A DNA stretch of 64,000 bases, taken from contig DASSMA010000058.1 in the NCBI GenBank assembly GCA_035689115.1, positions 2,573-66,572 on the forward strand. The letters are read 5' to 3'. The notes under the pieces are model-generated. The model had not been told where the DNA came from and ran no database searches. It saw nothing but the letters and a program-made list of their open reading frames with translations. The translations under genes and the position numbers were made by a program. Position 1 is the stretch's first letter; every line of letters starts with the position of its first letter. Positions 11,986-63,113 of this stretch are shown here, piece after piece. The stretch is from Acidimicrobiales bacterium (GTDB lineage Bacteria > Actinomycetota > Acidimicrobiia > Acidimicrobiales > GCA-2861595).

Positions 11986-12080
11986 GCCGTCTCACCTCCT
12001 GTCGTTCCTCGCCACGCCCTACCCAGGGTTTCGGCGATCGGAACCTCGCCGGGTCGAGGTGAGTGCCGCCGGCCGCATTC

Positions 12081-12200
12081 CGCCGCCGCTGGCGGCCAGG
12101 GGGGTGTGCGGGGCACGGCCCCCCACGCGAAGCCGCCGTGCCGCCTTCGCCGGTCGGCGGCCTGAGCGCCAGGGCGGCCCCGCTAATTCGGCGAGGAACC
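12081..12200 (-). repeat. GC-rich interspersed element, family C, reverse-oriented diverged copy
   Basis: cgccgccgctggcggccaggggggtgtgcggggcacggccccccacgcgaagccgccg... aligns to the reverse complement of C1 (gctggcggcactggggggtgcggggggcgcagccccccgaaaggagccgccg). Confidence 0.55.
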
Positions 12201-21273: not shown

Positions 21274-22257
21274 GTGGTGCGCCGGCAGCCCGTCCTCGTC
21301 GTCCTCCGGGCCCTCGGGCTCGGCGACCTGTGCACGGCCGTCCCCGCCCTGCGCGCCCTCGCCGACGCCTATCCCCGCCATCGCCGGGTGCTCCTCACCA
21401 CCGCCGGCGTCGCCCCCCTCGCCGCCGCCGCCGGCCTGGCCGACGAGGTCGTCACGACCGAGGACCCCCGATCCCGAGTACATAGCGTGCGGAAACCGCA
21501 CGCTATGTACTCGGGGTCGGTGGACGTGGCGGTGAACCTCCACGGCAAGGGCCCGGAGAGCCACCGGGCCCTGCTGGCGGCGGGGCCCCGCCGGCTCATC
21601 GCCTTCGGCACCGCCGGCGTGCCGGGGCCGGCGTGGCGCGCGGACGAGCACGAGGTGCACCGCTGGTGCCGGCTGCTGCGGGAGTCCGGCGTCCCCGCCG
21701 ATCCCGGCCGCCTCGACCTGGACCTGCCGGCGGCGCCCGTTCCGGACGGCGTGGCCGGCTCCACGGTGGTCCACCCCGGTGCCGCCTACCCGGCCAGGCG
21801 CTGGCCGGCGGCCCGGTGGGCGGCCGTGGCCCGGGCCGAGGCGTCCGCCGGGCGCGCCGTCGTCGTCACCGGCGGCGCCTCCGAGGCGGGCCTGGCCCGA
21901 GGCGTCGCCGCCGCCGCCGGCCTGCCGTCGTCCGCCGTCCTGGCCGGCGCCACAGGGGTGGTCGAGCTGGCGGCCGTGGTCGGCGCCGCCGGCCGGGTGG
22001 TGTGCGGCGACACCGGCGTCGCCCACCTGGCCACCGCCCTGCGCCGGCCGTCGGTCGTGCTGTTCGGTCCCGTCCCGCCCTCCTTGTGGGGACCGCCGCC
22101 CGACCGGCCGTGGCACACCGCACTGTGGGCCGGGCGCACCGGCGACCCCTGGGCGGCCAGTGTCGATGGGGGCCTGCTGGAGATCGGCGTCGACGACGTG
22201 CTGGCCGCCCTCGACGGCCTGCCCGCCGCCGAGCCGGTCGCGGCCGCGCCGGCATGA
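21274..22257 (+). CDS. second GT9 glycosyltransferase, carrying an in-frame palindromic insert
   Basis: Motifs: LVVLRALGLGDLCTAVPALRAL, DVAVNLHGKGPESH, VVHPGAAYPARRW, VVCGDTGVAHLATALRRPSVVLFGP. Residues PRSRVHSVRKPHAMYSGS are encoded by repeat A1. Confidence 0.8.
   Translation: MVRRQPVLVVLRALGLGDLCTAVPALRALADAYPRHRRVLLTTAGVAPLAAAAGLADEVVTTEDPRSRVHSVRKPHAMYSGSVDVAVNLHGKGPESHRALLAAGPRRLIAFGTAGVPGPAWRADEHEVHRWCRLLRESGVPADPGRLDLDLPAAPVPDGVAGSTVVHPGAAYPARRWPAARWAAVARAEASAGRAVVVTGGASEAGLARGVAAAAGLPSSAVLAGATGVVELAAVVGAAGRVVCGDTGVAHLATALRRPSVVLFGPVPPSLWGPPPDRPWHTALWAGRTGDPWAASVDGGLLEIGVDDVLAALDGLPAAEPVAAAPA
21468..21520. repeat. palindromic element, family A, copy 1 (inside the GT9 CDS)
   Basis: ccgatcccgagtacatagcgtgcgg-aaa-ccgcacgctatgtactcggggtcgg. 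It has 25 nt arms with one T:G position and a 3 nt loop. Confidence 0.9.
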
Positions 22258-33182: not shown

Positions 33183-33234
33183 CCGTCCCGAGTACATAGC
33201 GTGCGGAATCCGCACCCTATGTACTCGGGAACGG
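33183..33234. repeat. palindromic element, family A, copy 2
   Basis: ccgtcccgagtacatagcgtgcgg-aat-ccgcaccctatgtactcgggaacgg. The arms match copy 1 at 21468-21520. It starts 2 nt after the ureC stop. Confidence 0.9.
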
Positions 33235-37586: not shown

Positions 37587-38758
37587 GCGACCTGGAGACG
37601 GCACCCCCGCCCCGCGGCGCGGAACTGTCGCCCGAGCCCGACGTCGTCGACGTACCCGAGGTGGTGCGCCGGCGCCGCACGCCAATGGCGATGCTGGTCC
37701 CGGGCAGCCAGAGCCCGTGGCCGGGCCGGATCGCCTTCGTGGCCTTCGCCGCCGCCCTCTTCGCCCTGCCCGGCGTGCTGGGGCAGTCGAGCGAGGTGCG
37801 GCAGTGGGCCGAGTGGCTCTGCTACGCCATGGTCGCCGTCGGCCTCGACCTGGCCTGGGGCTACGGCGGGATGCTGGCCCTCGGCCAGGGCCTGTTCTTC
37901 GGCCTGGGCGCCTACGCCATGGGCATGCACCTGTCGCTGGAGCAGGTGCCGAAGGGCTCGCTGCCCTCGTTCATGTCCCTGTACAGCGACTACAAGACGC
38001 TTCCGGCGCTGTGGCGGCCGTTCCAGACGTTCTGGATGTCGGCGGCCATCGCCGTGGTGCTGCCCATGCTGATCGCCGGCCTGCTCGGGCTCCTCGTCTT
38101 CAAGCGCCGCATCCGGGGCCCGTACTTCGCCATCCTCACCCAGGCCACGGCCGTGATCTTCGCCCTCGTGCTCATCGGCAACCTGAAGCTCACCGCCGGC
38201 TTCAACGGCCTCACGGGGTTCACCAAGATCTTCGGGCGCAACAAGTACGCGCCCGGCACCGACACCTGGCTGTTCCAGATCGCCGCCGTGGGGCTGCTGG
38301 CCGTGCTGGCGGCGGCCATGAAGATCGTCGGCAGCCGGTACGGCAAGTTGCTCCAGGCCACCCGCGACAGCGAGGACCGGGTCCGGTTCCTCGGCTACGA
38401 CCCGGCGCTGGTGAAGACGGTCGGCTTCGCCGTCGCCGCCGGCATGGCCGGCCTGGCCGGGGCGGTGGCGGCGCCCGTGATCGGCATCGTGTCGCCCGGC
38501 CAGTTCGACTTCCTGCCGTCCATCCTGCTGGTGTGCTGGGTGGCCGTCGGCGGCCGCGGCAAGCTGTGGGGCGCCGTCCTCGGTGCCCTCCTCGTGAACT
38601 GGCTGCGGGTCACGGTGAGCGCCGCCCGGCCCAACGACTGGCAGTACTTCCAGGGCCTGCTGTTCGTGCTGGTGCTGGCGTTCATGCCCGGCGGGCTGGC
38701 CGGGTTCCTCAGGGCCGGCTGGCAGTCCGTCGCCACCCGGCTGGGGAGGGCCTCGTGA
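37583..38758 (+). CDS. urtC: urea ABC transporter permease
   Basis: GTGA overlap with urtB. LivM-type permease with LDLAWGYGGMLALGQGLFFGLGAY. Confidence 0.9.
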   Translation: MSDLETAPPPRGAELSPEPDVVDVPEVVRRRRTPMAMLVPGSQSPWPGRIAFVAFAAALFALPGVLGQSSEVRQWAEWLCYAMVAVGLDLAWGYGGMLALGQGLFFGLGAYAMGMHLSLEQVPKGSLPSFMSLYSDYKTLPALWRPFQTFWMSAAIAVVLPMLIAGLLGLLVFKRRIRGPYFAILTQATAVIFALVLIGNLKLTAGFNGLTGFTKIFGRNKYAPGTDTWLFQIAAVGLLAVLAAAMKIVGSRYGKLLQATRDSEDRVRFLGYDPALVKTVGFAVAAGMAGLAGAVAAPVIGIVSPGQFDFLPSILLVCWVAVGGRGKLWGAVLGALLVNWLRVTVSAARPNDWQYFQGLLFVLVLAFMPGGLAGFLRAGWQSVATRLGRAS

Positions 38759-39552
38759 GCGCGGCGCTCGAGATCAGGGGCCTGTCGGTGGAGTTCGACG
38801 GCTTCCGCGTCCTCGACGGTGTGAACCTGTCGGTCGAGCACGGGGAGCTGCGCTTCCTCATCGGGCCCAACGGCGCCGGCAAGACCACGCTGGTCGACTG
38901 CATCACCGGCCTCACCCACCCCACCGCCGGCGAGGTCGTGTGGGAGGGCCGGTCCCTCGGGCGCATGCCCGAGCACCGCCGGGTCCGCATGGGCATCGGG
39001 CGCAGCTTCCAGACGCCGACGGTCTTCGAGTCGCTCACCGTGCTCGACAACCTCGACCTGGCCGCCTCGTTCCGGCGCCCGCCGCTCACGATGTTCCTGC
39101 GCCGTCGCGGCGTCCCGGCGGCGGTGGCGGCCACCCTCGAGCGCATCGGCCTCGAATCGGTCGCCGGCCGGCCGGCGGGCGCCCTGAGCCACGGCCAGAA
39201 GCAGTGGCTGGAGATCGGGATGCTGCTGGTGCAGGAGCCGCGGCTGCTGCTGCTCGACGAGCCGGTGGCCGGCATGAGCCCCCAGGAGCGCCTCGACACC
39301 GGCGCGCTCCTGAAGGAGCTGGCCGGCGACCACACCGTGCTGGTCATCGAGCACGACATGGCGTTCCTTCGCCGCTTCGCCGACACCGTCACCGTCCTGC
39401 ACCTGGGCCGGGTCGTGTCGGAGGGCACGGTGGAGCACGTCCAGTCCGACCCCGTGGTGCGGGAGGTCTACCTGGGTCGCTCCCGCGACGAGCGCTCCGG
39501 CGCCGCCCCCGCCCTCGAGGCGGCCGCCCTCGGTCTCGGGGAGGAAGCGTGA
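38755..39552 (+). CDS. urtD: urea ABC transporter ATP-binding protein
   Basis: GTGA overlap with urtC. Walker A: GPNGAGKTT. Signature: LSHGQKQWLEI. Walker B: LLLLDEP. Confidence 0.9.
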   Translation: MSAALEIRGLSVEFDGFRVLDGVNLSVEHGELRFLIGPNGAGKTTLVDCITGLTHPTAGEVVWEGRSLGRMPEHRRVRMGIGRSFQTPTVFESLTVLDNLDLAASFRRPPLTMFLRRRGVPAAVAATLERIGLESVAGRPAGALSHGQKQWLEIGMLLVQEPRLLLLDEPVAGMSPQERLDTGALLKELAGDHTVLVIEHDMAFLRRFADTVTVLHLGRVVSEGTVEHVQSDPVVREVYLGRSRDERSGAAPALEAAALGLGEEA

Positions 39553-39670
39553 GAATCGCCTCGCAGGCGGAGCTTGCTCGGCGAGCCGGATCGGCGGCTC
39601 CTTTCGGGGGGCTGCGCCCCCCGCACCCCCCAGTGCCGCCAGCCACGGGGGCCGCCTACGGCGGCGCGGG
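39553..39670 (+). repeat. GC-rich interspersed element, family C, copy 1
   Basis: tcgcctcgcaggcggagcttgctcgg...ggggggctgcgccccccgcaccccccagtgccgccagccacgggggccgcctacggcgg. I estimate roughly 85% identity to the copy at 51299-51393 over the core. Confidence 0.8.
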
Positions 39671-39718
39671 CCGGCCGGCGGCGGTGCCCGTCGGTCTCAG
39701 ATCGCTTGGCGAAGGGCG

Positions 39719-40423
39719 GTGGAAGGCGTGAACCTCGAACTCGACAGCGTGCGGATCGCCTACGGCCGGGCCGAGGTGGTGTTCGGCGTGTCGCTCGACG
39801 TGCCCGACCGCAGCTTCACCTGCCTCATGGGCCGCAACGGGGTGGGCAAGACCACGCTGCTCAACGGGGTGATGGGCATCCTCCCGCTGAAGGCGGGCGC
39901 CGTCCGCCTCGACGGCCGCGACATCACCCGGCTGGGCGCCCCCCAGCGGGCCCGGGCCGGGATCGGCTACGTGCCCCAGGGCCACCAGGTGTTCCCGTAC
40001 CTCACGGCCGCCGAGAACCTGGCCGTCGTCCTGGAGCGCCACGGCCGGCCGGCCAAGGGCGCCCTGGACGACGCCCTCGACCTGTTCCCCGCCCTCCGCC
40101 CCCTGCTCGACCGCCCCGCCGGCCTGCTGTCGGGCGGCCAGGCCCAGCAGCTGGCCATCGCCCGGGCCCTGGTGGCCCGTCCGTCGCTGCTGGTCCTGGA
40201 CGAGCCCACCGAGGGCATCCAGCCGTCGATCATCGTGGAGATCGAGGAGGCCATCGCCGAGCTGCACGCCTCGGGCCTCACCATCCTGCTGGTGGAGCAG
40301 TACGTGGAGTTCGCCCTCCGCCTGGCCCACCGGTTCGCGGTGATGGACGGCGGCATGCTGGTCCACGCCGGGGACACCGCCGGCGTGGACCCCGGGACCC
40401 TGGCCCAGCTTCTCGCCGTGTAG
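39719..40423 (+). CDS. urtE: urea ABC transporter ATP-binding protein
   Basis: Walker A: GRNGVGKTT. Signature: LSGGQAQQLAI. Walker B: LLVLDEP. Candidate starts are GTG at 39719 or GTG at 39728. Confidence 0.9.
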   Translation: MEGVNLELDSVRIAYGRAEVVFGVSLDVPDRSFTCLMGRNGVGKTTLLNGVMGILPLKAGAVRLDGRDITRLGAPQRARAGIGYVPQGHQVFPYLTAAENLAVVLERHGRPAKGALDDALDLFPALRPLLDRPAGLLSGGQAQQLAIARALVARPSLLVLDEPTEGIQPSIIVEIEEAIAELHASGLTILLVEQYVEFALRLAHRFAVMDGGMLVHAGDTAGVDPGTLAQLLAV

Positions 40424-40427
40424 GTTG

Positions 40428-40472
40428 CGCCTCGCAAGCGCCGGCGGCGCTCAGGCCGCCGCCGGCGAGGCG
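40428..40472. terminator. long imperfect GC hairpin between convergent urtE and the YCII gene; its 5' end matches the head of family C
   Basis: cgcctcgc...gcgaggcg outer stem with an internal ccggcggcg/cgccgccgg-like stem. There is no U-tract. The head motif gcgcctcgcaagcg equals the start of elements C1 and C2. Confidence 0.3.
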
Positions 40473-40479
40473 AAACCCC

Positions 40480-40833
40480 CTACGCCCCCTCGGTGGGCCG
40501 GAGCTCGACGGGGCCCTCGCAGGCGAGGGCCGCCTTGGACGCCCAGTCGAGGGCGACCTCCCGGTCGGCGGCCTCGATGATCCAGAAGCCGCCCATCTGC
40601 TCCTTGGTCTCGGCGAAGGGCCCGTCGGTCATGGCGATGTCGGCGCCGGTCGCCCGCACGACCGTGGCCGTGGAGGCCGGGCGGAGGCCGGTGCCGAACA
40701 CCCAGGCCCCCGCCCGCTCGAGGGTGCCGTTGAAATCGCTCACCTGGGCCATGCGGCGCTGCATGTCCGGCGAGTTGAAGTCGAGGTCGTCGTAGGGCTC
40801 GGCGTGCCAGACCGACAGCAGGTACTGGGGCAT
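40480..40833 (-). CDS. YCII-related (DGPF) domain protein
   Basis: ATG at 40833 follows GAAGGAG. Motif: MPQYLLSVWH...DGPFAETKEQMGGFWIIEA. Confidence 0.8.
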   Translation of the reverse strand: MPQYLLSVWHAEPYDDLDFNSPDMQRRMAQVSDFNGTLERAGAWVFGTGLRPASTATVVRATGADIAMTDGPFAETKEQMGGFWIIEAADREVALDWASKAALACEGPVELRPTEGA

Positions 40834-48509: not shown

Positions 48510-49094
48510 TTGGAGTTGAGCTCCGGCGGGGTTGATCTGCCCCGCATCGAGCGGGCGGTGCGGGAGATCCTGGAGGCCATCGGCGAGGACCCCGATCGCG
48601 ACGGCCTGCGCCGCACCCCGGCGCGGGTGGCCGCCCTCTACGCCGAGGTCTTCTCGGGCCTGGGAGCGCGCCCGGAGGACGCTCTGAGCGTCACCTTCGA
48701 GTCGGGTCACGACGAGATGGTGATGGTCAACGACATCCCGCTCTACGGCGTCTGCGAGCACCACCTCATCCCCTTCGTGGGGCGGGCCCACGTGGCCTAC
48801 GTCCCCAACGAGGAGGGCCGCATCACCGGGCTCTCCAAGCTGGTCCGCCTCGTCCACGTCTACGCCCGCCGGCCCCAGGTGCAGGAGAACCTCACCGCCC
48901 AGATCGCCGACGCCCTGATGGCGGTGCTGGCCCCGCGCGGCGTGCTCGTGTCCATCGAGGCCGAGCACCTGTGCATGTCGATGCGCGGGGTCCGTACGCC
49001 CGGCACCAAGACGGTCACCACGGTGGTGCGGGGCCTGTTCCGCACCGACCCGAGGACCCGTTCGGAGGCGATGGCGTTCATCCACGGGCGCTGA
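48510..49094 (+). CDS. folE: GTP cyclohydrolase I
   Basis: Motifs: [43 protein letters not shown] start. Confidence 0.95.
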
Positions 49095-49181: not shown

Positions 49182-51296
49182 ATGAACCAGGCGAGCAGGC
49201 CCGCCAACGACATCGAGCGCCACATCCAAGCGCGCTCCCGCTTTGCCTCGCTCCTCGTCCAGGAGCCCGAGTACTTCCAGAAGATCTTCCCGGTCAGCGG
49301 GAGCACCATCTTCGAGCAGCTCACCTGCGTGGGGCTCGAGCCCGACCAGCACGCGCTGTACGCCACCATTGCCGTGAAGCACACGACCGGCTACGGCGGC
49401 GACCTGTGCACCCGCGCCGGCGGCCGCGAGTACGTCCGGTTCTTCGTCGACTGGAACGGCGACGGCGACTTCACCGACGCCGCCGAGGACCTGGGCGTGG
49501 CCAGCGTGGCCGTCCACGACATCCCCGGTCCCAAGCCGCTCGTGTACTCGGTGACCGTGCCCCTCACCCGCGAGCAGGGGCTGTGCTTCCTCGCCCGGCC
49601 GGTGAAGGTGCGGGCCGTCCTCATGTACAACGCCGTCCCGCCGGCCGGGGACCCCGACCCGTTCATCGTCTGGGGCGGGATCCTCGACGTCAACGTGCAG
49701 CCGCGGTCCGGGAGCCTGGTTCTCGGCGACCTGCTGGCGCACGCCCAGGTCAAGCTGGCGCCGGCCTTCGCCGAGCTGGTCGACACCAAGGCGCCGGTGG
49801 CGAAGTCCACGACGCTCACGCCCGCCCAGGTGGTGGCCCTCTACGCCGGCGACGAGACCATGCCCCTGCACCGGTCCCTCGGGCCGCAGCTGGCCACCAT
49901 CGCCCAGGCCATGTCGGCCGACGCCGGCAAGGCGCAGCCGGCCGCCCTGGCGTCGTCGCTCCAGGCCGCCGTCGGCACCGAGGTGGCCGCCAAGCTCGAC
50001 CTGTCCAACGTGATCGGCGCCTATCTCGACCTGGACGGCGACACCAGCTTCGAGGAACTGCACTGCGTGGGGCTGCACCCCGATCTCAGCGCGGTGGTCG
50101 GCGTCCTGGAGATCAAGCGGCCGGCCGGCTACTCGGGCGGCCCGTGCACCTCGGGCAGCCTGGAGTTCGTCAGCTTCTGGGCCGACTGGGACGACAGCGG
50201 GTCGTGGGACCAGTACCTCGGCACCGCCCAGGTCCGCGTCCACGACGAGCAGGTGCCGCCCGGGGGCATCCGCTACGCGGTGTTCCTGCCGGTGAACCTG
50301 GCCCCCCACCGGCGGCCTTGCGGCCAGTCGCACACCGCCCGCATCCGGGCCGTGCTGTCCTGGAACACCCCGCCCGCCTCCACCAACCCCTACGCCGTGC
50401 CCAGGTGGGGCAACCACGTCGAGGCCCTGGTCCAGCTCCCCGTGGGCGAGCCCGAGATCGGGCAGGTGCCGTTCATCAGCGTGGTGGGCGGCATGGCGGT
50501 GGCCGACATCGACGGCGCCGGCCTCGCCACCGGCACCGCCGTGATGGCCGGGTTCCACGCCTCGAACAGCCCGTTCGCCGGCATGGTGTCGATCGCCGGC
50601 CACATCTCCAACCCGCCGGACCTGAGCGCCGGCCAGCCGGCGCTGACGTACGGCCTCAAGTTCCGCAAGGACGGCGACGTGGCGGTGCACGACATCGCCG
50701 ACTCCTTCCAGGTGACCCTGAGCCGCTACTCGGGCTCCGTGTGGACCCAGACCCAGCCGATGCAGATCGCCAACCCGGGCACCCACCGGTTCCCCTACCT
50801 GGAGGACCTCACGCCCAACGGCCCGGCGGGGGACATCACCTTCGTCGAGGGCTTCCTGCTGGGCAAGTGGAAGACCGGCGTCTTGGCCGATGGTCGCTAC
50901 GAGGTGTGGATGGAGGCCGACATCGGGGGCTCGACGGTCGAGAGCAACCACGTGTGGGTCCAACTGGACAACACCGCCCCCAAGGCGGTGCTGGCCCTGA
51001 ACGGCGACCCGTTCACGCCCAAGGGCACCGACATCACCGGGACGTTCGAGGCCACCGACGACCACTTCGGGTCGTGGTCGCTCGGGGTCGTGCCCGGCGG
51101 CTACCCGCACGCCCCGTCGCCGGCCGGCGACAGCGCCCCCAGGGCGGCGGGCACCCCGTTCACGCTGTCGACGAACCTGGCCACGCCGGGGGGCTACGTC
51201 CTCCACCTGCAGGTGACCGACCGCTCGATCGTGAACAGCGGCTCCATCGGCCTCACCACCCCTGCAGACGTGGGCTTCTGCGTCGAGAAGCCCTAG
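49182..51296 (+). CDS. 704-aa uncharacterised protein with two copies of a novel ~130-aa Cys-containing domain and a C-terminal beta-rich (Ig-like?) region
   Basis: High third-position GC. The internal repeat covers aa 44-173 and aa 290-418. There is no signal peptide, and I recognise no family. Confidence 0.7.
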   Translation: MNQASRPANDIERHIQARSRFASLLVQEPEYFQKIFPVSGSTIFEQLTCVGLEPDQHALYATIAVKHTTGYGGDLCTRAGGREYVRFFVDWNGDGDFTDAAEDLGVASVAVHDIPGPKPLVYSVTVPLTREQGLCFLARPVKVRAVLMYNAVPPAGDPDPFIVWGGILDVNVQPRSGSLVLGDLLAHAQVKLAPAFAELVDTKAPVAKSTTLTPAQVVALYAGDETMPLHRSLGPQLATIAQAMSADAGKAQPAALASSLQAAVGTEVAAKLDLSNVIGAYLDLDGDTSFEELHCVGLHPDLSAVVGVLEIKRPAGYSGGPCTSGSLEFVSFWADWDDSGSWDQYLGTAQVRVHDEQVPPGGIRYAVFLPVNLAPHRRPCGQSHTARIRAVLSWNTPPASTNPYAVPRWGNHVEALVQLPVGEPEIGQVPFISVVGGMAVADIDGAGLATGTAVMAGFHASNSPFAGMVSIAGHISNPPDLSAGQPALTYGLKFRKDGDVAVHDIADSFQVTLSRYSGSVWTQTQPMQIANPGTHRFPYLEDLTPNGPAGDITFVEGFLLGKWKTGVLADGRYEVWMEADIGGSTVESNHVWVQLDNTAPKAVLALNGDPFTPKGTDITGTFEATDDHFGSWSLGVVPGGYPHAPSPAGDSAPRAAGTPFTLSTNLATPGGYVLHLQVTDRSIVNSGSIGLTTPADVGFCVEKP

Positions 51297-51298
51297 GG

Positions 51299-51393
51299 TT
51301 TCGCCTCGCAAGCGGATCTTGCTCGGCTGCTTTGTGGGGGGCTGCGCCCCCCACGCCCCCCGTGCCGGCAGCCGTGGGGGGCGCCTCCGGCGC
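51299..51393 (+). repeat. GC-rich interspersed element, family C, copy 2
   Basis: tttcgcctcgcaagcggatcttgctcggctgctttgtggggggctgcgccccccacgccccccgtgccggcagccgtggggggcgcctccggcgcc. It starts 3 nt after the TAG of the 704-aa gene. Confidence 0.8.
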
Positions 51394-51494
51394 CGTTCTG
51401 CGGCCGCCGGCAGCCGATGCACCCGCCGGCGACCGGGCAATGGGGCCCGGTCGTCCGGCGCGAAGAATCGCCGGAAGCTGCCGATACTGAAAGG

Positions 51495-52748
51495 GTGAGG
51501 CTCGGTCTCGCGGGGGTTGTGGTGGCGGCCGCTGTGGTGGCCGCCGGCGGCTCGGCGGGCGCCGGCGTGCCGGGGTCGTCCTGCCCCGTCTTCCCGGCCG
51601 ACAACGTGTGGCACGCCGACGTGTCGTCGCTGCCGGTCCACCCGTCCGGCGCCGCCTGGCTGGCGTCGATGGGAGGCCCGGCCGTGCGGATCCACCCCGA
51701 CTTCGGGCCGGCCGGGCCGGGGGAGCAGCCCTACGGGATCCCGTGGGTCACCGTGGCGGGCGACGCCCCCAAGGTCGACGTGGCCTTCGAGTACGCCGAC
51801 GAGAGCGACCCGGGGCCCTACCCCCTCACCCGGGCCACGCCGGTGGAGGGCGGCAGCGACCGCCACGCCATCATGGTCGACCGCGACCGCTGCACGCTCT
51901 ACGAGCTGTACGGGACGGCGTGGGATGCCGAGGGGGCGGTCGCCGGCTCCGGGGCGGTCTGGGACCTGCGGTCCGACGCCCTCCGGCCCGACGGCTGGAC
52001 CTCGGCCGACGCCGCCGGCCTGCCCATCTTCGCCGGCCTCCTCCGGCGCGACGAGGTGGCGTCGGGCACGGTCGACCATGCCATCCGGATGACCGCCCAG
52101 CGCACCGACCGGTCCTACGTGTGGCCGGCCCGCCACCAGGCCGGCGCCGCCCGCGACCCGTCGCTGCCGCCCATGGGCGCCCGGTTCCGCCTCAAGGGGG
52201 CCTTCTCCCTGGCCGGCTTCCGCCCCGACACCCAGGCGGTGCTGCGGGCCATGCAGCACTACGGCCTGATCCTGGCCGACAACGGGTCGAATTGGTACTT
52301 CACGGGCACGTCCGAGGACGGCTGGGACCCCGCCATGCTCGACGAGCTGAAGACGATCCCGGCCGGCGCCTTCGAGGCGGTGGACGCCTCGTCGCTCATG
52401 GCCAGCCCCGACTCGGGCCGGGTACGGGCGCCGGCGCCGGCCACCACCCTCCCGGCGGCCACGACCACCACCACCCGGCCGCCGACCACCACCACCCGCC
52501 CGGACACCACGACGACGGCGCCGGCCACCACCACGTCGTCGTCGACCACCGTGCCGCCTCCCAAGCGGGTGCTGCTGCTCCCGCCGACCACCGAGGCGGC
52601 GCCCGACGAGACCGTGTCGGCCGCCCCGGCGGCGGCCACGTCGGGCGGAGGGCCGACCGCGTGGCTGCTGGCCCTCGGCGCCGCCGGCGCGGCGGCGGGC
52701 GCCGGCTGGGCCGTCCTCCACCTGCGCCGGCGCCGCCCACCCCCCTGA
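51495..52748 (+). CDS. secreted protein with a Thr-rich stalk and a C-terminal membrane anchor
   Basis: GTG at 51495. The signal-like N-terminus is VRLGLAGVVVAAAVVAAGGSAGA. After a conserved-looking globular part (DESDPGPYP, GWTSADAAGLPI, PPMGARFRLK) come a poly-Thr linker, a TM helix and an RRRR stop-transfer. Confidence 0.65.
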   Translation: MRLGLAGVVVAAAVVAAGGSAGAGVPGSSCPVFPADNVWHADVSSLPVHPSGAAWLASMGGPAVRIHPDFGPAGPGEQPYGIPWVTVAGDAPKVDVAFEYADESDPGPYPLTRATPVEGGSDRHAIMVDRDRCTLYELYGTAWDAEGAVAGSGAVWDLRSDALRPDGWTSADAAGLPIFAGLLRRDEVASGTVDHAIRMTAQRTDRSYVWPARHQAGAARDPSLPPMGARFRLKGAFSLAGFRPDTQAVLRAMQHYGLILADNGSNWYFTGTSEDGWDPAMLDELKTIPAGAFEAVDASSLMASPDSGRVRAPAPATTLPAATTTTTRPPTTTTRPDTTTTAPATTTSSSTTVPPPKRVLLLPPTTEAAPDETVSAAPAAATSGGGPTAWLLALGAAGAAAGAGWAVLHLRRRRPPP

Positions 52749-60685: not shown

Positions 60686-62079
60686 TCCCCTACCGCTTCG
60701 AGCGGGACCGCGACGCCGCCTCGCTCCAGGCCGAGTTCGGCGGGCTGGAGGCCGGGGCCGAGACGGGCGCGACCGCGTCGGTCGCCGGCCGCCTCATGCT
60801 CCGGCGGGTGCAGGGGAAGCTGGCTTTCGGGACGCTCCAGGACTCGTCCGGCCGCGTGCAGCTGTTCGCACGCAAGGGCCGGACCCCCGACTTCGACACG
60901 TTCTGCGCCCTCTCCCTGGGCGACTGGATCGGGGTGCGGGGCGAGGTGTTGAAGACCCGCACGGGCGAGCTGTCGGTGAGCGTGGACGAGTGGGTGCTCC
61001 TGGCCGAGGCCCGCCGCTCCTTCCCCGACAAGTGGCACGGCATCACCGACGTCGACACGCGCTACCGCCAGCGCTACGTCGACCTGTGGGTCACCGACGA
61101 GGCCCGCCGCACGTTCCTGCTCCGCAGCCGCCTCATCAGCCTCCTGCGCCGGTTCCTGGAGGACAGGGGCTTCGTCGAGGTGGAGACGCCGATCTTCCAC
61201 CCGGTGGCCGGCGGGGCGGCGGCCCGGCCCTTCGTCACCCACCACAACGCCCTCGACCTCGACCTCTACCTGCGGATCGCCACCGAGCTGTACCTCAAGC
61301 GGCTGGTGGTGGGCGGCTTCGAGAAGGTGTTCGAGGTGGGCCGCACGTTCCGCAACGAGGGCCTGTCGCCCCGCCACAACCCCGAGTTCACCATGCTCGA
61401 GGTCTACGAGGCCTACGCCGACTACGGCGACATGATGGCCCTCACCGAGGGCCTGGTCGTCCACCTGGCCACCGAGCTGTGCGGGACGACCCACCTCACC
61501 TACGGGGGCCGGGAGCTGGACCTCACCCCGCCGTGGCGGCGGGCCACCCTCACCGAGCTGGTGGAGGAGCACGCCCACGTCCACGTCGACGTCGACATGC
61601 CGGTGGAGGACCTGCGGAAGGTCGCCGAGGACCACGGGATCGAGCCCCAGTCGGGCTGGGGACCGGGGAAGCTCGTCCTGGAGATCTACGAGAAGACCAC
61701 CGAGTCGCAGCTGTGGGGCCCGGTGTTCGTCTGCGACTACCCCCAGGAGGTGTCCCCCCTGGCCCGCGTCCATCGCGAGCGCCCCGGCCTGGTGGAGCGC
61801 TTCGAGGCCATCCTCGCCGGCCGGGAGCTGGCCAACGCCTTCTCCGAGCTGGTCGACCCCGACGACCAGCGCCGGCGCTTCGAGGACCAGGCCCGGGCCA
61901 AGGCGGCCGGCGACGAGGAGGCCATGGACCTCGACGAGGACTTCCTCCGGGCCCTCGACTACGGCTTCCCGCCCACCGGCGGCCTCGGGATCGGCATCGA
62001 CCGCCTGGTGATGCTCCTGGCCGACGCCCACCACATCCGCGACGTCCTCCTCTTCCCCACCCTCCGCCCCGAGCAGTGA
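60682..62079 (+). CDS. lysS: lysine--tRNA ligase (class II)
   Basis: GTGA overlap with coaX. It has an OB-fold N-terminus. Motif 2: FRNEG. Motif 3: GGLGIGIDRLVMLL. Confidence 0.95.
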   Translation: MIPYRFERDRDAASLQAEFGGLEAGAETGATASVAGRLMLRRVQGKLAFGTLQDSSGRVQLFARKGRTPDFDTFCALSLGDWIGVRGEVLKTRTGELSVSVDEWVLLAEARRSFPDKWHGITDVDTRYRQRYVDLWVTDEARRTFLLRSRLISLLRRFLEDRGFVEVETPIFHPVAGGAAARPFVTHHNALDLDLYLRIATELYLKRLVVGGFEKVFEVGRTFRNEGLSPRHNPEFTMLEVYEAYADYGDMMALTEGLVVHLATELCGTTHLTYGGRELDLTPPWRRATLTELVEEHAHVHVDVDMPVEDLRKVAEDHGIEPQSGWGPGKLVLEIYEKTTESQLWGPVFVCDYPQEVSPLARVHRERPGLVERFEAILAGRELANAFSELVDPDDQRRRFEDQARAKAAGDEEAMDLDEDFLRALDYGFPPTGGLGIGIDRLVMLLADAHHIRDVLLFPTLRPEQ

Positions 62080-62084
62080 ACGGA

Positions 62085-62127
62085 CTCGGGACGTTTTCGA
62101 TCGCTATGCGATCGGAACCGTCCCGAG
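62085..62127. repeat. palindromic element, family B, copy 1
   Basis: ctcgggacgttttcgatcgc-tat-gcgatcggaaccgtcccgag. It starts 6 nt after the lysS stop and encodes the last 7 codons and the stop of the DUF559 gene. Confidence 0.85.
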
Positions 62128-63021
62128 AACGCGGCGGACCTGGGCGGCGACCCGGTCGGGGCGCCGGACGACGTCGGCCCAGGTGAACCGCAGGACGGTC
62201 CAGCCGAGGGCCACGAGGGCGTTCTGCCGCTCGAGATCGTGCTGGAACGCCTGGGGCGAGGCATGGGCGGCGTGGCCGTCGACCTCCAGGGCCAGGCGCC
62301 GGTCGGGGTAGGCGAAGTCCACCCGGGCGACGAAGCGTCCGGCCTCGCGCACCTCGTGCTGGAAGGCGGCCGGCGGGAGTCGGTGGACCCGCATGAGGCG
62401 GGCCATGCGGGGCTCGAGCAGGGAGTCCGGCCGGTCGGCGCCGAGCGCCCGCCGGTCGAGGACGCCCCGCAGCACGCCGGCGCCCGAGCGCCCCGGCCCG
62501 GCCACCTCTTCGAGTGCCTGCTCCACGCCGGCGACCGTCAGCAGGCGCGCCTCCAGCGCCCGCTCGAGGGCGTCCTCCACCGCGCCGGCCGGCAGGACGG
62601 CCCCCAGGTCGACCAGCGCGCGCATCGGCGTGGTCGTCGGGACCCCCCTGCGGCGCACCGCCCGGGCGGCGCCGAGGTCGCCGGACCGGTGCAGCACGAC
62701 GCCGTGGAGCCGGGGCCGGCGGGGGCGCGGCACGGACACCTCGACGGTGTCGTCGTCCAGCAGGCCCCACAGGCGCGCCGCCGAGCGGTGGGACGCCACC
62801 GCTCCCTGGCCGGCGCCGAGCACGGCGGCCAGCACCCGCTGCTCCCAGGTGACCGGTGCGCCGGCCACCCGGTACACCGAGGGGAACACGGCGACGACCC
62901 GGCCGGCGCCCAGCCAGCGGCCGACGGTCGGCTCGCTCACGCCGGCCGCGTGCAGCTGCTCCCTCGTCACCAGCCCGTGCTGGCCGGCGCCGAGCCCGTC
63001 CAGCCATGTGATCGGGCCCAC
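62104..63021 (-). CDS. AbiEi_4-like N-terminal domain plus DUF559 (Vsr-endonuclease-fold) protein
   Basis: GTG at 63021 follows GAGGAGGGG. N-terminal region: GLVTREQLHAAGVSEPTVGRWLGAGR. C-terminal DUF559-like region: VDFAYPDRRLALEVDGHAAHASPQAFQHDLERQNALVALGWTVLRFTW. Confidence 0.8.
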   Translation of the reverse strand: MGPITWLDGLGAGQHGLVTREQLHAAGVSEPTVGRWLGAGRVVAVFPSVYRVAGAPVTWEQRVLAAVLGAGQGAVASHRSAARLWGLLDDDTVEVSVPRPRRPRLHGVVLHRSGDLGAARAVRRRGVPTTTPMRALVDLGAVLPAGAVEDALERALEARLLTVAGVEQALEEVAGPGRSGAGVLRGVLDRRALGADRPDSLLEPRMARLMRVHRLPPAAFQHEVREAGRFVARVDFAYPDRRLALEVDGHAAHASPQAFQHDLERQNALVALGWTVLRFTWADVVRRPDRVAAQVRRVLGTVPIA

Positions 63022-63042
63022 GGCCCCTCCTCGTTGACGCGG

Positions 63043-63087
63043 TCTGGGGACGTTTTCGATCGCTCTGCGATCGGAAACGTCCCGAGA
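63043..63087. repeat. palindromic element, family B, copy 2
   Basis: tctggggacgttttcgatcgc-tct-gcgatcggaaacgtcccgaga. It lies 22 nt upstream of the DUF559 start codon. Confidence 0.85.
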
Positions 63088-63113
63088 CTGTTTTCGGGTG
63101 GAGGGGGAAGGGG

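What the first reader, a model, noticed from the sequence alone, without database searches (positions are those of the whole stretch)
39549..39731. A 61-codon ORF built from a GC-rich repeat bridges urtD and urtE with GTGA overlaps at both ends
The urtD stop (TGA 39550-39552) overlaps a GTG at 39549. That frame stays open for 60 codons (VRIASQAELARRAGSAAPFGGLRPPHPPVPPATGAAYGGAGRPAAVPVGLRSLGEGRWKA). It ends at TGA 39729-39731, which overlaps a GTG at 39728 that gives a normal UrtE N-terminus (VNLELDSVRIAYG). Most of this spacer is repeat family C. The other urt junctions (urtB/C and urtC/D) are direct GTGA overlaps, so here a 166 nt element has been inserted while a chain of coupled start and stop codons is preserved. 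Mycobacterial MIRUs behave this way: they are small intergenic repeats in operons whose ORFs overlap the flanking stop and start codons. The sequence here is unrelated to any element I recognise.
Basis: partly seen in the sequence, partly recalled or inferred. Interest (0 to 1): 0.7.

Follow-up and report, generated by a model that had tools for sequence, protein, structure and literature searches.

The report
Repeat inserted at urtD/urtE start-stop overlap
A roughly 165-base GC-rich mobile-looking repeat has landed on the four-base stop/start overlap between two urea-transporter genes and duplicated that overlap, so the 61-codon "bridge ORF" is most likely a non-coding by-product that may still pass ribosomes from one gene to the next.

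Summary
The urtD stop (TGA 39550-52) overlaps GTG 39549. That frame runs 60 codons to TGA 39729-31, which overlaps the urtE start at GTG 39728. urtB/C and urtC/D are plain GTGA overlaps.

In eight loci from the closest UrtE relatives (78-84% identity), urtD/urtE overlap directly: NTGA in seven and TGATG in one. The spacer is therefore an insertion.

It belongs to a real repeat family with two more copies in the window (alignment z = 17 and 8). It is flanked by a direct duplication of the ancestral ribosome-binding site plus GTGA (GGAGGAAG-CGTGA / GGTGGAAGGCGTGA). This was the only such pair at that spacing among 63,500 window positions.

That duplication alone explains GTGA at both ends. The open frame is not informative. 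All three forward frames of the insert lack stops, 64% of shuffles stay open, and only the phase (1 in 3) is needed.

The ORF has non-coding composition (GC1/2/3 = 0.80/0.74/0.77, against about 0.7/0.45/0.98 for the urt genes). It has no homologue.

It is a MIRU-like situation for this one copy. A family-wide tendency could not be tested, because no further copies were found in any collection.

The parts
38755..39552 (+). urtD (265 codons plus stop). It starts at the GTGA overlap with urtC and ends at TGA 39550-52.
   Evidence: TIGR03411 hit E 6.6e-97. Junction read. GC1/2/3 = 0.76/0.47/0.97.
39540..39552 (+). Left copy of the duplicated target, GGAGGAAGCGTGA. This is the ancestral urtE Shine-Dalgarno sequence plus the GTGA overlap. 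It now serves as the urtD stop and the start of the bridge ORF.
   Evidence: Relatives have GGAGGAcGC GTGA ACCT at the undisturbed junction. Its anti-SD duplex energy of -10.8 kcal/mol is like that of the relatives.
39553..39717 (+). Repeat element C1, about 165 nt and 78% GC, absent from all relatives. The left end is GAATCGCCTCGCAGGCGGAGCTTGC. The reverse complement of the right end, GCCCTTCGCC--AAGCGATCT, is an imperfect inverted copy of the family's left end.
   Evidence: Searches show the family similarity. Searches show the empty sites and the lack of copies in relatives. One search shows that the ends pair in the minimum-free-energy fold, at -99 kcal/mol against a window background of -82 +/- 11.
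39606..39631 (+). Core of the element, GGGGGGCTGCGCCCCCC-GCA-CCCCCC: a G6/C6 hairpin followed by a second C6 run.
   Evidence: One search found a second copy at 51336-51361. One search found the same 26-mer pattern in 91 stretches of GTDB genomes from many phyla.
39718..39731 (+). Right copy of the duplicated target, GGTGGAAGGCGTGA. It provides a Shine-Dalgarno-like sequence, the urtE start GTG 39728 and the bridge-ORF stop TGA 39729-31.
   Evidence: It is at edit distance 2 from the left copy. This was the only pair that similar at this spacing among 63,500 window positions.
39549..39731 (+). Bridge ORF of 60 codons plus stop. It is judged to be a non-coding by-product that is probably translated.
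   Evidence: GC1/2/3 = 0.80/0.74/0.77 with no codon periodicity. No NCBIfam family. No hit among 5.8 billion proteins. One marginal hit (E 5e-4) among 1.84 billion representatives.
39728..40423 (+). urtE (231 aa), intact.
   Evidence: TIGR03410 hit E 1.4e-84. Homologues of 231-232 aa begin at the same residue.
40424..40477 (+). Short palindromic relative (H): GTTGCGCCTCGC...GCGAGGCGAAAC. It shares the family's end motif GGTTTCGCCTCGC on both arms and lies between the convergent stop codons of urtE and a YCII-domain gene.
   Evidence: -39.5 kcal/mol. One search gives H versus C3 z = 6.6. One search identifies the YCII gene.
51297..51470 (+). Family copy C2. It begins directly after the TAG stop (51294-96) of a GEVED-domain gene and lies upstream of a conserved hypothetical gene that starts at GTG 51495. 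Its right boundary is uncertain.
12003..12198 (-). Family copy C3. It has 9-10 nt perfect terminal inverted repeats (TTCCTCGCC / GGCGAGGAA) and is flanked by ACCGGAGGT / ACAGGAGGT. It lies in a divergent intergenic region. The right flank repeat is the SD of the minus-strand gene that starts at GTG 11985.

Best explanation
A non-autonomous, GC-rich, palindromic repeat (MITE-like, about 165 nt) transposed into the ancestral urtD/urtE GTGA overlap of this Acidimicrobiales-like genome. It duplicated 10-14 nt of target, comprising the urtE Shine-Dalgarno sequence plus GTGA.

The left copy keeps the urtD stop and leaves the old urtE ribosome-binding site and GTG facing into the element. The right copy re-creates an SD and GTG for urtE, together with a TGA. 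The insert is 78% GC and has no stop in any forward frame, and the two GTGAs happen to lie 179 nt apart (2 mod 3). The old start therefore reads 60 codons and terminates on the new urtE start.

The ORF is a by-product, not a gene. Shown: the insertion, the flanking duplication, family membership, non-coding composition, lack of homologues and the chance level of the open frame. Inferred: ribosomes probably still initiate or re-initiate at GTG 39549, translate through the structured element and terminate at the urtE start. That would help keep UrtD and UrtE production coupled and may be why this insertion is tolerated. urtE also has its own duplicated SD, so the bridge may not be required.
For: Empty sites. 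Eight loci of the nearest UrtE homologues have urtD/urtE overlapping by 4 nt (seven loci) or 1 nt (one locus). Deleting 39553-39731 restores GGGGAGGAAGC GTGA ACCTCGA, which is collinear with the relatives.

Duplication. GGAGGAAG-CGTGA and GGTGGAAGGCGTGA flank the insert. This was 1 of 63,500 positions at this similarity. For the 10/11-mer core it was 7 of 63,500.

Family. C1-C2 z = 17, C1-C3 z = 7.9 and C2-C3 z = 6.9, with the alignment. C3 independently shows perfect 9-10 nt terminal inverted repeats plus an 8/9 flanking direct repeat that also contains an SD.

Not coding. There is no GC3 periodicity, no protein family and no homologue.

Openness is expected. All + frames are stop-free, 64% of shuffles are open and 66% of background windows are open.

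Both GTGAs are held by the flanking genes. The urtD stop and a GC3-favoured G fix the left copy. The urtE start and the conserved Asn codon fix the right copy.

The left site retains an SD as strong as in relatives.
Against: Only three full copies and one short relative could be examined, so the element ends and the length of the duplication are not firmly defined. C2 shows no convincing flanking repeat or right terminal repeat.

All three copies carry a purine-rich GGAAG/GGAGG-like motif a few bases beyond the conserved ...CGAA right end. Part of what I call target duplication in C1 could therefore be element-borne. That would favour the MIRU-like rival.

No transposase with matching ends was found. 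Translation of the bridge and its effect on UrtE are untested. The accessibility and SD-energy calculations did not discriminate between models.
Confidence: 0.68

Rival explanations
1. Family-level MIRU analogue. The element is adapted to operon junctions. It carries its own SD-like motif and start/stop at its right end, is kept stop-free in one phase, and preferentially lands on ribosome-binding sites or start-stop overlaps. Its internal ORF then relays ribosomes by termination-reinitiation.
For: C1 behaves exactly this way. In C2 the same element-relative frame (xASQAxLAR...GGLRPP) starts right after the upstream TAG, is open for 66 codons and is in frame with the downstream gene's GTG 51495. 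C1 and C3 both sit on an SD sequence. All three right ends have a GGAAG/GGTAGGG-like purine motif at a similar distance from ...CGAA. MIRUs set the precedent.
Against: The sample is three copies. C3 lies between divergent genes and has stops in two of three frames, including the C1-equivalent frame. C2 has no start codon overlapping the upstream stop, and its stop in another frame lies 4 nt before the downstream start, not overlapping it. Stop-free frames are the default at 78% GC. The left-flank similarity is explained by duplication, not by an element-borne motif. The phase coincidences are post hoc, at roughly 1/3 to 1/9 each.
Confidence: 0.17
2. The 60-codon ORF encodes a genuine small protein that became part of the urt operon.
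For: It has an intact ancestral SD and GTG and overlapping stop/start signals.
Against: Its GC1/2/3 is flat at 0.80/0.74/0.77, against about 0.7/0.45/0.98 in neighbouring genes. The sequence is a repeat also found in non-coding contexts. There is no family and no homologue among 5.8 billion proteins. Only one marginal low-complexity hit appeared among 1.84 billion representatives. It is absent from all related urt operons. The collection's gene caller did not record it.
Confidence: 0.02
3. The insert acts mainly as an RNA or DNA structural signal inside the operon, such as an internal attenuator or terminator, an mRNA-stability hairpin or a protein-binding site. On this view it changes the UrtD:UrtE ratio, and the ORF is irrelevant.
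For: It has strong predicted structure, -99 kcal/mol against a window background of -82 +/- 11. A short relative (H) sits exactly between convergent stop codons, like a bidirectional terminator. G6/C6 hairpins of this type are common after genes in many GC-rich genomes.
Against: Fold stability is not exceptional, with z = -0.8 against its own shuffles and about -1.6 against window segments. There is no terminator-like or promoter-like site and no Rfam match. With three diverged copies, covariation cannot be assessed.
Confidence: 0.1

Closest known systems
Mycobacterial interspersed repetitive units (MIRUs; Supply et al. 1997, as summarised in PMC3184786 and PMC12548453)
   Same: Both are GC-rich intergenic repeats inside a polycistronic operon, with filled versus empty orthologous sites and short flanking direct repeats. 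Both contain an ORF whose start and stop overlap the neighbouring stop and start at -4 spacing, which is thought to minimise the impact on the downstream gene.
   Different: This is a single unit of about 165 nt, not 40-100 nt units often in tandem arrays. It is in an Acidimicrobiales-like genome, not Mycobacterium. Its sequence was not compared with MIRU consensus sequences. The overlap property holds for one of three copies only and is explained by a 10-14 nt target duplication plus composition. MIRU flanking repeats are described as tetranucleotides.
Bacterial MITEs (for example Nezha, Correia/CREE, RUP, MITEAba12)
   Same: It is small (under 200 nt), has no transposase, has imperfect terminal inverted repeats that pair into a long hairpin, shows target-site duplication, occurs in multiple diverged copies, has a demonstrable empty site in relatives, is co-transcribed with genes and forms incidental ORF fusions.
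   Different: No parent insertion sequence with matching ends was found. The ends are poorly conserved between copies. The architecture is modular, with an H-like hairpin module and a G6/C6 core, and so resembles BIME-type mosaics more than a simple MITE.
REP / BIME / REPIN elements
   Same: These are also GC-rich palindromic extragenic units that often lie just after stop codons, combine in a modular way and may act as terminators or stabilisers.
   Different: REP units are about 20-40 nt with a conserved GTAG head. They are mobilised by RAYT (HUH) transposases without target duplication. Here there is a clear flanking duplication, a much longer unit and no detectable RAYT in the 64 kb.

Membership tests
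MIRU | An ORF inside the repeat whose start and stop overlap the stop and start of the flanking operon genes (-4 spacing) | tested here: met
   This holds for copy C1 only: GTGA 39549-52 and GTGA 39728-31 with the frame open between them.
MIRU | The overlap and coupling property is shared by the family's copies | tested here: inconclusive
   C2 has no overlapping start at the upstream TAG, although the same frame is open and in phase with the downstream start. C3 lies in a divergent intergenic region and has stops in two frames. Only three copies were available.
MIRU | Units of about 40-100 bp, frequently as tandem arrays (VNTR) | tested here: not met
   This is a single unit of about 165 nt. 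Tandem Repeats Finder found nothing in 39400-39900.
MIRU | Filled versus empty orthologous sites with short flanking direct repeats | tested here: met
   Eight empty sites were found in relatives. The flanking repeat is GGAGGAAG-CGTGA / GGTGGAAGGCGTGA. It is longer than the tetranucleotide described for MIRUs.
MIRU | Sequence similarity to MIRU class I-III consensus; mycobacterial host | not tested
   No MIRU sequence was available in the tools. The host is Acidimicrobiales-like according to the UrtE homologues.
MITE | Terminal inverted repeats | tested here: met
   C3 has perfect 9-10 nt repeats, TTCCTCGCC / GGCGAGGAA. The reverse complement of C1's right end, GCCCTTCGCC--AAGCGATCT, resembles C2's left end, GGGTTTCGCCTCGCAAGCGGATCT. 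H has GGTTkCGCCTCGC on both arms. C2's right end was not identified.
MITE | Target-site duplication | tested here: met
   C1 has a 10-14 nt duplication, 1 of 63,500 by position scan. C3 has 8/9 identity, which is weaker because 0.2% of positions reach that level before allowing for choice of boundary. C2 is not convincing.
MITE | Small, no transposase, multiple copies | tested here: met
   The copies are 165-195 nt and show no coding signature. There are three copies plus one short relative in 64 kb.
MITE | A parent IS with the same ends and the same duplication length | not testable with these tools
   There is no further end-motif pair in the window. The source genome is not in any searchable collection.
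REP/REPIN (RAYT-mobilised) | Palindrome of about 20-40 nt with a conserved GTAG head, no target duplication and a RAYT gene in the genome | tested here: not met
   The unit is about 165 nt and is flanked by a duplication. No conserved GTAG is present at the C1 or C3 ends. The presence of RAYT could not be tested without the genome.
Protein-coding small gene | Codon-position compositional periodicity and conserved homologues | tested here: not met
   Its GC1/2/3 is 0.80/0.74/0.77, against about 0.7/0.45/0.98 in the urt genes. No homologues were found.

The most novel reading that the evidence does not exclude
Family C is an Acidimicrobiia counterpart of mycobacterial MIRUs. On this reading it is a mobile GC-rich palindromic element that preferentially lands on ribosome-binding sites and start-stop overlaps, duplicates the SD and start, and is maintained stop-free in one phase. 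A translated bridge then relays ribosomes between operon genes. In addition, its G6-hairpin-plus-C6 core would belong to a cross-phylum sequence grammar (a G-run/C-run hairpin followed by a third run of the same type) with a shared, still unrecognised function.
Probability: 0.15. Interest if true: 0.6.

Novelty: new member of a known kind. Interest (0 to 1): 0.35.

Why it matters
This is a clean natural example, outside Mycobacterium, of how a small mobile repeat can sit inside a translationally coupled operon without breaking it. The target duplication regenerates the stop, the ribosome-binding site and the start. In a very GC-rich genome an open 'bridge' frame then comes almost for free. It also offers a mechanistic reading of the MIRU-type arrangement as duplication of an NTGA target. 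UrtD and UrtE are the two ATPase subunits of one transporter, so the locus would be a good test case for termination-reinitiation across a long structured spacer. It is also a caution for annotation: open frames with overlapping start and stop signals in 75-80% GC genomes are weak evidence for a gene or for selection.

Tried and rejected
1. Finding more family copies. This failed, so the genome-wide census could not be run.
- A genome-contig scan with the core pattern returned 91 stretches, but from unrelated families in many phyla and none from the source genome.
- Two metagenome-contig scans with family-specific patterns returned nothing.
- Two viral-contig scans returned nothing.
- Exact look-up of the window's UrtE found no contig.
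- About 130 kb from eight relatives' loci contains no copy.

2. Bridge ORF as a protein. Rejected.

3. Known RNA family. There were no Rfam hits at gathering thresholds, and only noise appeared at E up to 10.

4. Terminator or promoter in the insert. None was found.

5. A weaker SD or an occluded start at urtE that would force dependence on the bridge. The duplex energies were -15.7 against -10.8 kcal/mol. Unpaired probabilities were 0.44 (urtE site), 0.37 (bridge site) and 0.36 (reconstructed empty site). These do not discriminate.

6. A second empty site for C2. Relatives have folE directly upstream of the downstream gene, not the GEVED gene, so the comparison only showed that GCCGATA...GTGAG is native 5' sequence.

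7. A coupled mini-ORF at C3. GTG 11995, which overlaps a TGA, is not the real start. GC3 phase supports GTG 11985.

8. Literature search for the core sequences. No paper contains them.
Full report
**Check of the observation**

- The urtD frame ends at TGA 39550-52, inside GTGA 39549-52.
- The frame from GTG 39549 is open for 60 codons (VRIASQAEL...GEGRWKA) and stops at TGA 39729-31, inside GTGA 39728-31.
- GTG 39728 opens VNLELD..., a 231-aa protein that matches UrtE (TIGR03410, E 1.4e-84). The upstream ORF matches UrtD (TIGR03411) and the ORF at 36693 matches UrtB.
- The protein collection's own gene call for this contig is the same 231-aa UrtE (P0001).
- The urtB/C and urtC/D junctions are plain GTGA overlaps at 37583-86 and 38755-58.

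**Is the spacer an insertion?**

Yes. UrtE's nearest homologues (78-84% identity) come from Acidimicrobiales and Acidimicrobiia metagenome assemblies. I fetched eight loci carrying them.
- In seven loci urtD and urtE overlap by 4 nt (ATGA or GTGA).
- In one locus they overlap by 1 nt (TGATG).
- The relatives read ...GGGGAGGAcGC GTGA ACCTsGAGCTCGAC.
- Removing 39553-39731 from the window gives ...GGGGAGGAAGC GTGA ACCTCGAACTCGAC, which is collinear with them.

**What was inserted?**

The 165 nt at 39553-39717 (78% GC) belong to a repeat family.
- Copy C2 lies at 51297-~51470, on the same strand.
- Copy C3 lies at 12198-12003, on the minus strand.
- Local-alignment scores are far above dinucleotide shuffles: C1-C2 z = 17, C1-C3 z = 7.9, C2-C3 z = 6.9.
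- All three share the core GGGGGGC(T/C)G(C/T)GCCCC..CCCCCC followed by G(T/G)GCCG(C/G)CAGC.
- A 54-nt palindrome directly after the urtE stop (H, 40424-40477) carries the family's end motif GGTT(T/G)CGCCTCGC on both arms. It also resembles the left part of C3.

The ends are imperfect inverted repeats.
- The reverse complement of C1's right end, GCCCTTCGCC--AAGCGATCT, mirrors C2's left end, GGGTTTCGCCTCGCAAGCGGATCT.
- C3 has perfect 9-10 nt terminal inverted repeats, and these pair in its minimum-free-energy fold.
- No Rfam family matches. There is no tandem structure and no promoter- or terminator-like site.

**The flanking duplication**

This is the key point. Immediately left of the insert is GGAGGAAGCGTGA (39540-52). 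Immediately right of it is GGTGGAAGGCGTGA (39718-31). They differ by one substitution and one inserted G.
- I scanned all 63,500 window positions at the same spacing. This was the only pair of 13/14-mers within edit distance 2.
- For the 10/11-nt core, 7 positions reached edit distance 1 or less.
- The duplicated segment is the ancestral urtE Shine-Dalgarno sequence plus the GTGA overlap.
- A target-site duplication therefore accounts by itself for GTGA at both ends.

C3 shows the same signature independently. It has terminal inverted repeats plus the flanking repeat ACCGGAGGT / ACAGGAGGT (8/9 identical). The right copy is the SD of the gene starting at GTG 11985. That start is supported by GC3 phase. 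C2 has no convincing duplication or right terminal repeat.

**Is the open frame more than chance?**

No.
- None of the three forward frames of the insert contains a stop.
- 64% of dinucleotide shuffles of the 177 internal bases stay open in frame.
- 66% of random 59-codon windows of this 74.6% GC window are open.
- The same frame is already open from 38940.

The only real requirement is that the two GTGAs lie 2 mod 3 apart. They are 179 nt apart, which is a one-in-three outcome, so the combined probability is about 0.2.

Retention of both GTGAs does not need selection on the bridge either.
- On the left, TGA is the urtD stop, and the preceding G is a third codon position in a genome with 97-99% GC3.
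- On the right, GTG is the urtE start, and the A begins the conserved Asn codon.

**Is the ORF a gene?**

No.
- Its GC1/2/3 is 0.80/0.74/0.77. For urtB, C, D and E it is 0.67-0.78 / 0.44-0.49 / 0.97-0.99.
- It matches no NCBIfam model.
- It has no hit among 5.8 billion clustered proteins. That result also means the gene caller did not record it.
- A full HMMER pass over 1.84 billion representatives gave a single marginal hit (E 5e-4, 36 bits, four stretches in a 990-aa protein).

**How it most likely works**

Shown: a MITE-like repeat inserted at the NTGA overlap with duplication of SD plus GTGA. The resulting ORF is compositionally non-coding and is expected by chance.

Inferred: the left copy keeps the full ancestral urtE ribosome-binding site, with an anti-SD duplex of -10.8 kcal/mol, as in relatives. 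Ribosomes leaving urtD should therefore still start at GTG 39549, translate through the structured element and terminate on the urtE start. That favours re-initiation and unfolding of the element. It would keep the two ATPase subunits coupled and could explain why the insertion is tolerated.

However, the right copy also provides an SD-like sequence (-15.7 kcal/mol). Predicted accessibility of the two sites and of the reconstructed empty site is similar, at 0.44, 0.37 and 0.36. The bridge may therefore be dispensable.

**The MIRU-like rival**

Reviews describe MIRUs as mobile repeats that insert at start codons. An internal ORF becomes coupled at -4 to the gene. They show flanking direct repeats and empty sites in M. 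leprae (PMC3184786; PMC12548453). C1 fits that picture.

Some hints point to a family property.
- In C2 the same element-relative frame (GFASQADLAR..GGLRPP, compared with RIASQAELAR..GGLRPP in C1) starts right after the upstream TAG. It is open for 66 codons and is in frame with the downstream gene's start, GTG 51495. That start is also the gene caller's choice.
- C1 and C3 both sit on SD sequences.
- All three right ends carry a purine-rich GGAAG-like motif at a similar distance from ...CGAA.

Other evidence goes against it.
- C3 lies between divergent genes and has stops in two frames.
- C2 has no start overlapping the upstream stop.
- Stop-free frames are the default at this GC content.
- The phase coincidences are post hoc.

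With three copies this cannot be settled. I give it about 0.17.

**Limits**

- Exact look-ups failed.
- The GTDB scan with the core pattern returned only other families.
- Both metagenome scans and two viral scans returned nothing.
- The relatives' loci hold no copy.

**Comparison with known systems, and novelty**

The element works like a MITE: terminal inverted repeats, target-site duplication, no transposase, multiple copies and an empty site. At this locus it reproduces the MIRU arrangement.

It is not a MIRU by size, tandem structure or host. It is not a REP/REPIN, because it has a flanking duplication and is far longer.

I rate it a new member of a known kind. The sequence family appears undescribed: there is no Rfam match and no paper holds the core sequences. 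The behaviour, however, is known and is here largely explained by duplication plus composition. Interest is moderate to low, at 0.35.

Noticed in passing
window 21472-21516 (second copy 33186-33234): A 44-nt perfect palindrome, CCCGAGTACATAGCGTGCGGAAACCGCACGCTATGTACTCGGG, lies inside ORF 21274..22257 (+, 327 aa). By my own reading of its sequence, not by any family search, that ORF looks like a GT9/heptosyltransferase. The palindrome is read in frame without a stop (..PRSRVHSVRKPHAMYSGS..), like a Rickettsia-type in-frame palindromic insertion. The second copy (92% identical) is intergenic, just after a TGA.
   Followed up: partly
window 62060-62133 and 63038-63111: This is another palindromic repeat pair (..CGGGACGTTTTCGATCGCTATGCGATCGGAAC.GTCCCGAGA, 92% identical), seemingly a third small repeat family in the window.
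   Followed up: no
window 40421-40482: The 54-nt palindrome H fills almost exactly the gap between two convergent stop codons: the urtE TAG at 40421-23 and the YCII-domain gene's TAG on the minus strand at 40480-82. Both of its ends read TAG+GG(G)TT(T/G)CGCCTCGC. C2 also starts directly after a TAG. Three of the five well-defined GGTTTCGCC-type ends therefore abut a TAG stop.
   Followed up: partly
loci L007-L097 (GTDB genomes) and window 39606-39631, 51336-51361: The exact core GGGGGGCTGCGCCCCCC-NNN-CCCCCC occurs in 91 stretches from many GC-rich phyla, including Streptomyces, Rhodobacterales, Dehalococcoidia, Verrucomicrobia and Solirubrobacterales. It is embedded in otherwise different local repeats. 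Among 88 other G-run/C-run hairpins in those loci that were not selected by the search pattern, 58 have a third run of the same type next to them and 12 have a run of the opposite type. The grammar 'hairpin plus same-type run' therefore recurs. Rhodobacter loci L073 and L096 also share the 12-mer GGTTTCGCCTCG with family C's left end, directly 5' of the core. No paper holds these sequences.
   Followed up: partly
window 49182-51296 compared with loci L100-L103: In relatives the conserved hypothetical gene (window 51495-52748) directly follows ftsH-folE. In the window a 704-aa GEVED-domain gene is interposed between folE (48510-49094) and that gene, and repeat copy C2 sits at its 3' boundary.
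   Followed up: partly
window 51297-51497: In C2 the frame that begins right after the upstream TAG is the same element-relative frame as the C1 bridge ORF. It stays open for 66 codons and runs in frame into the downstream gene's start, GTG 51495. ATG 51417, inside the element, is also in that frame.
   Followed up: partly
locus L098 8004-10699: In one relative the gene caller reports urtC and urtD as a single 665-aa ORF. Its junction with urtE is TGATG (-1) and not NTGA.
   Followed up: no
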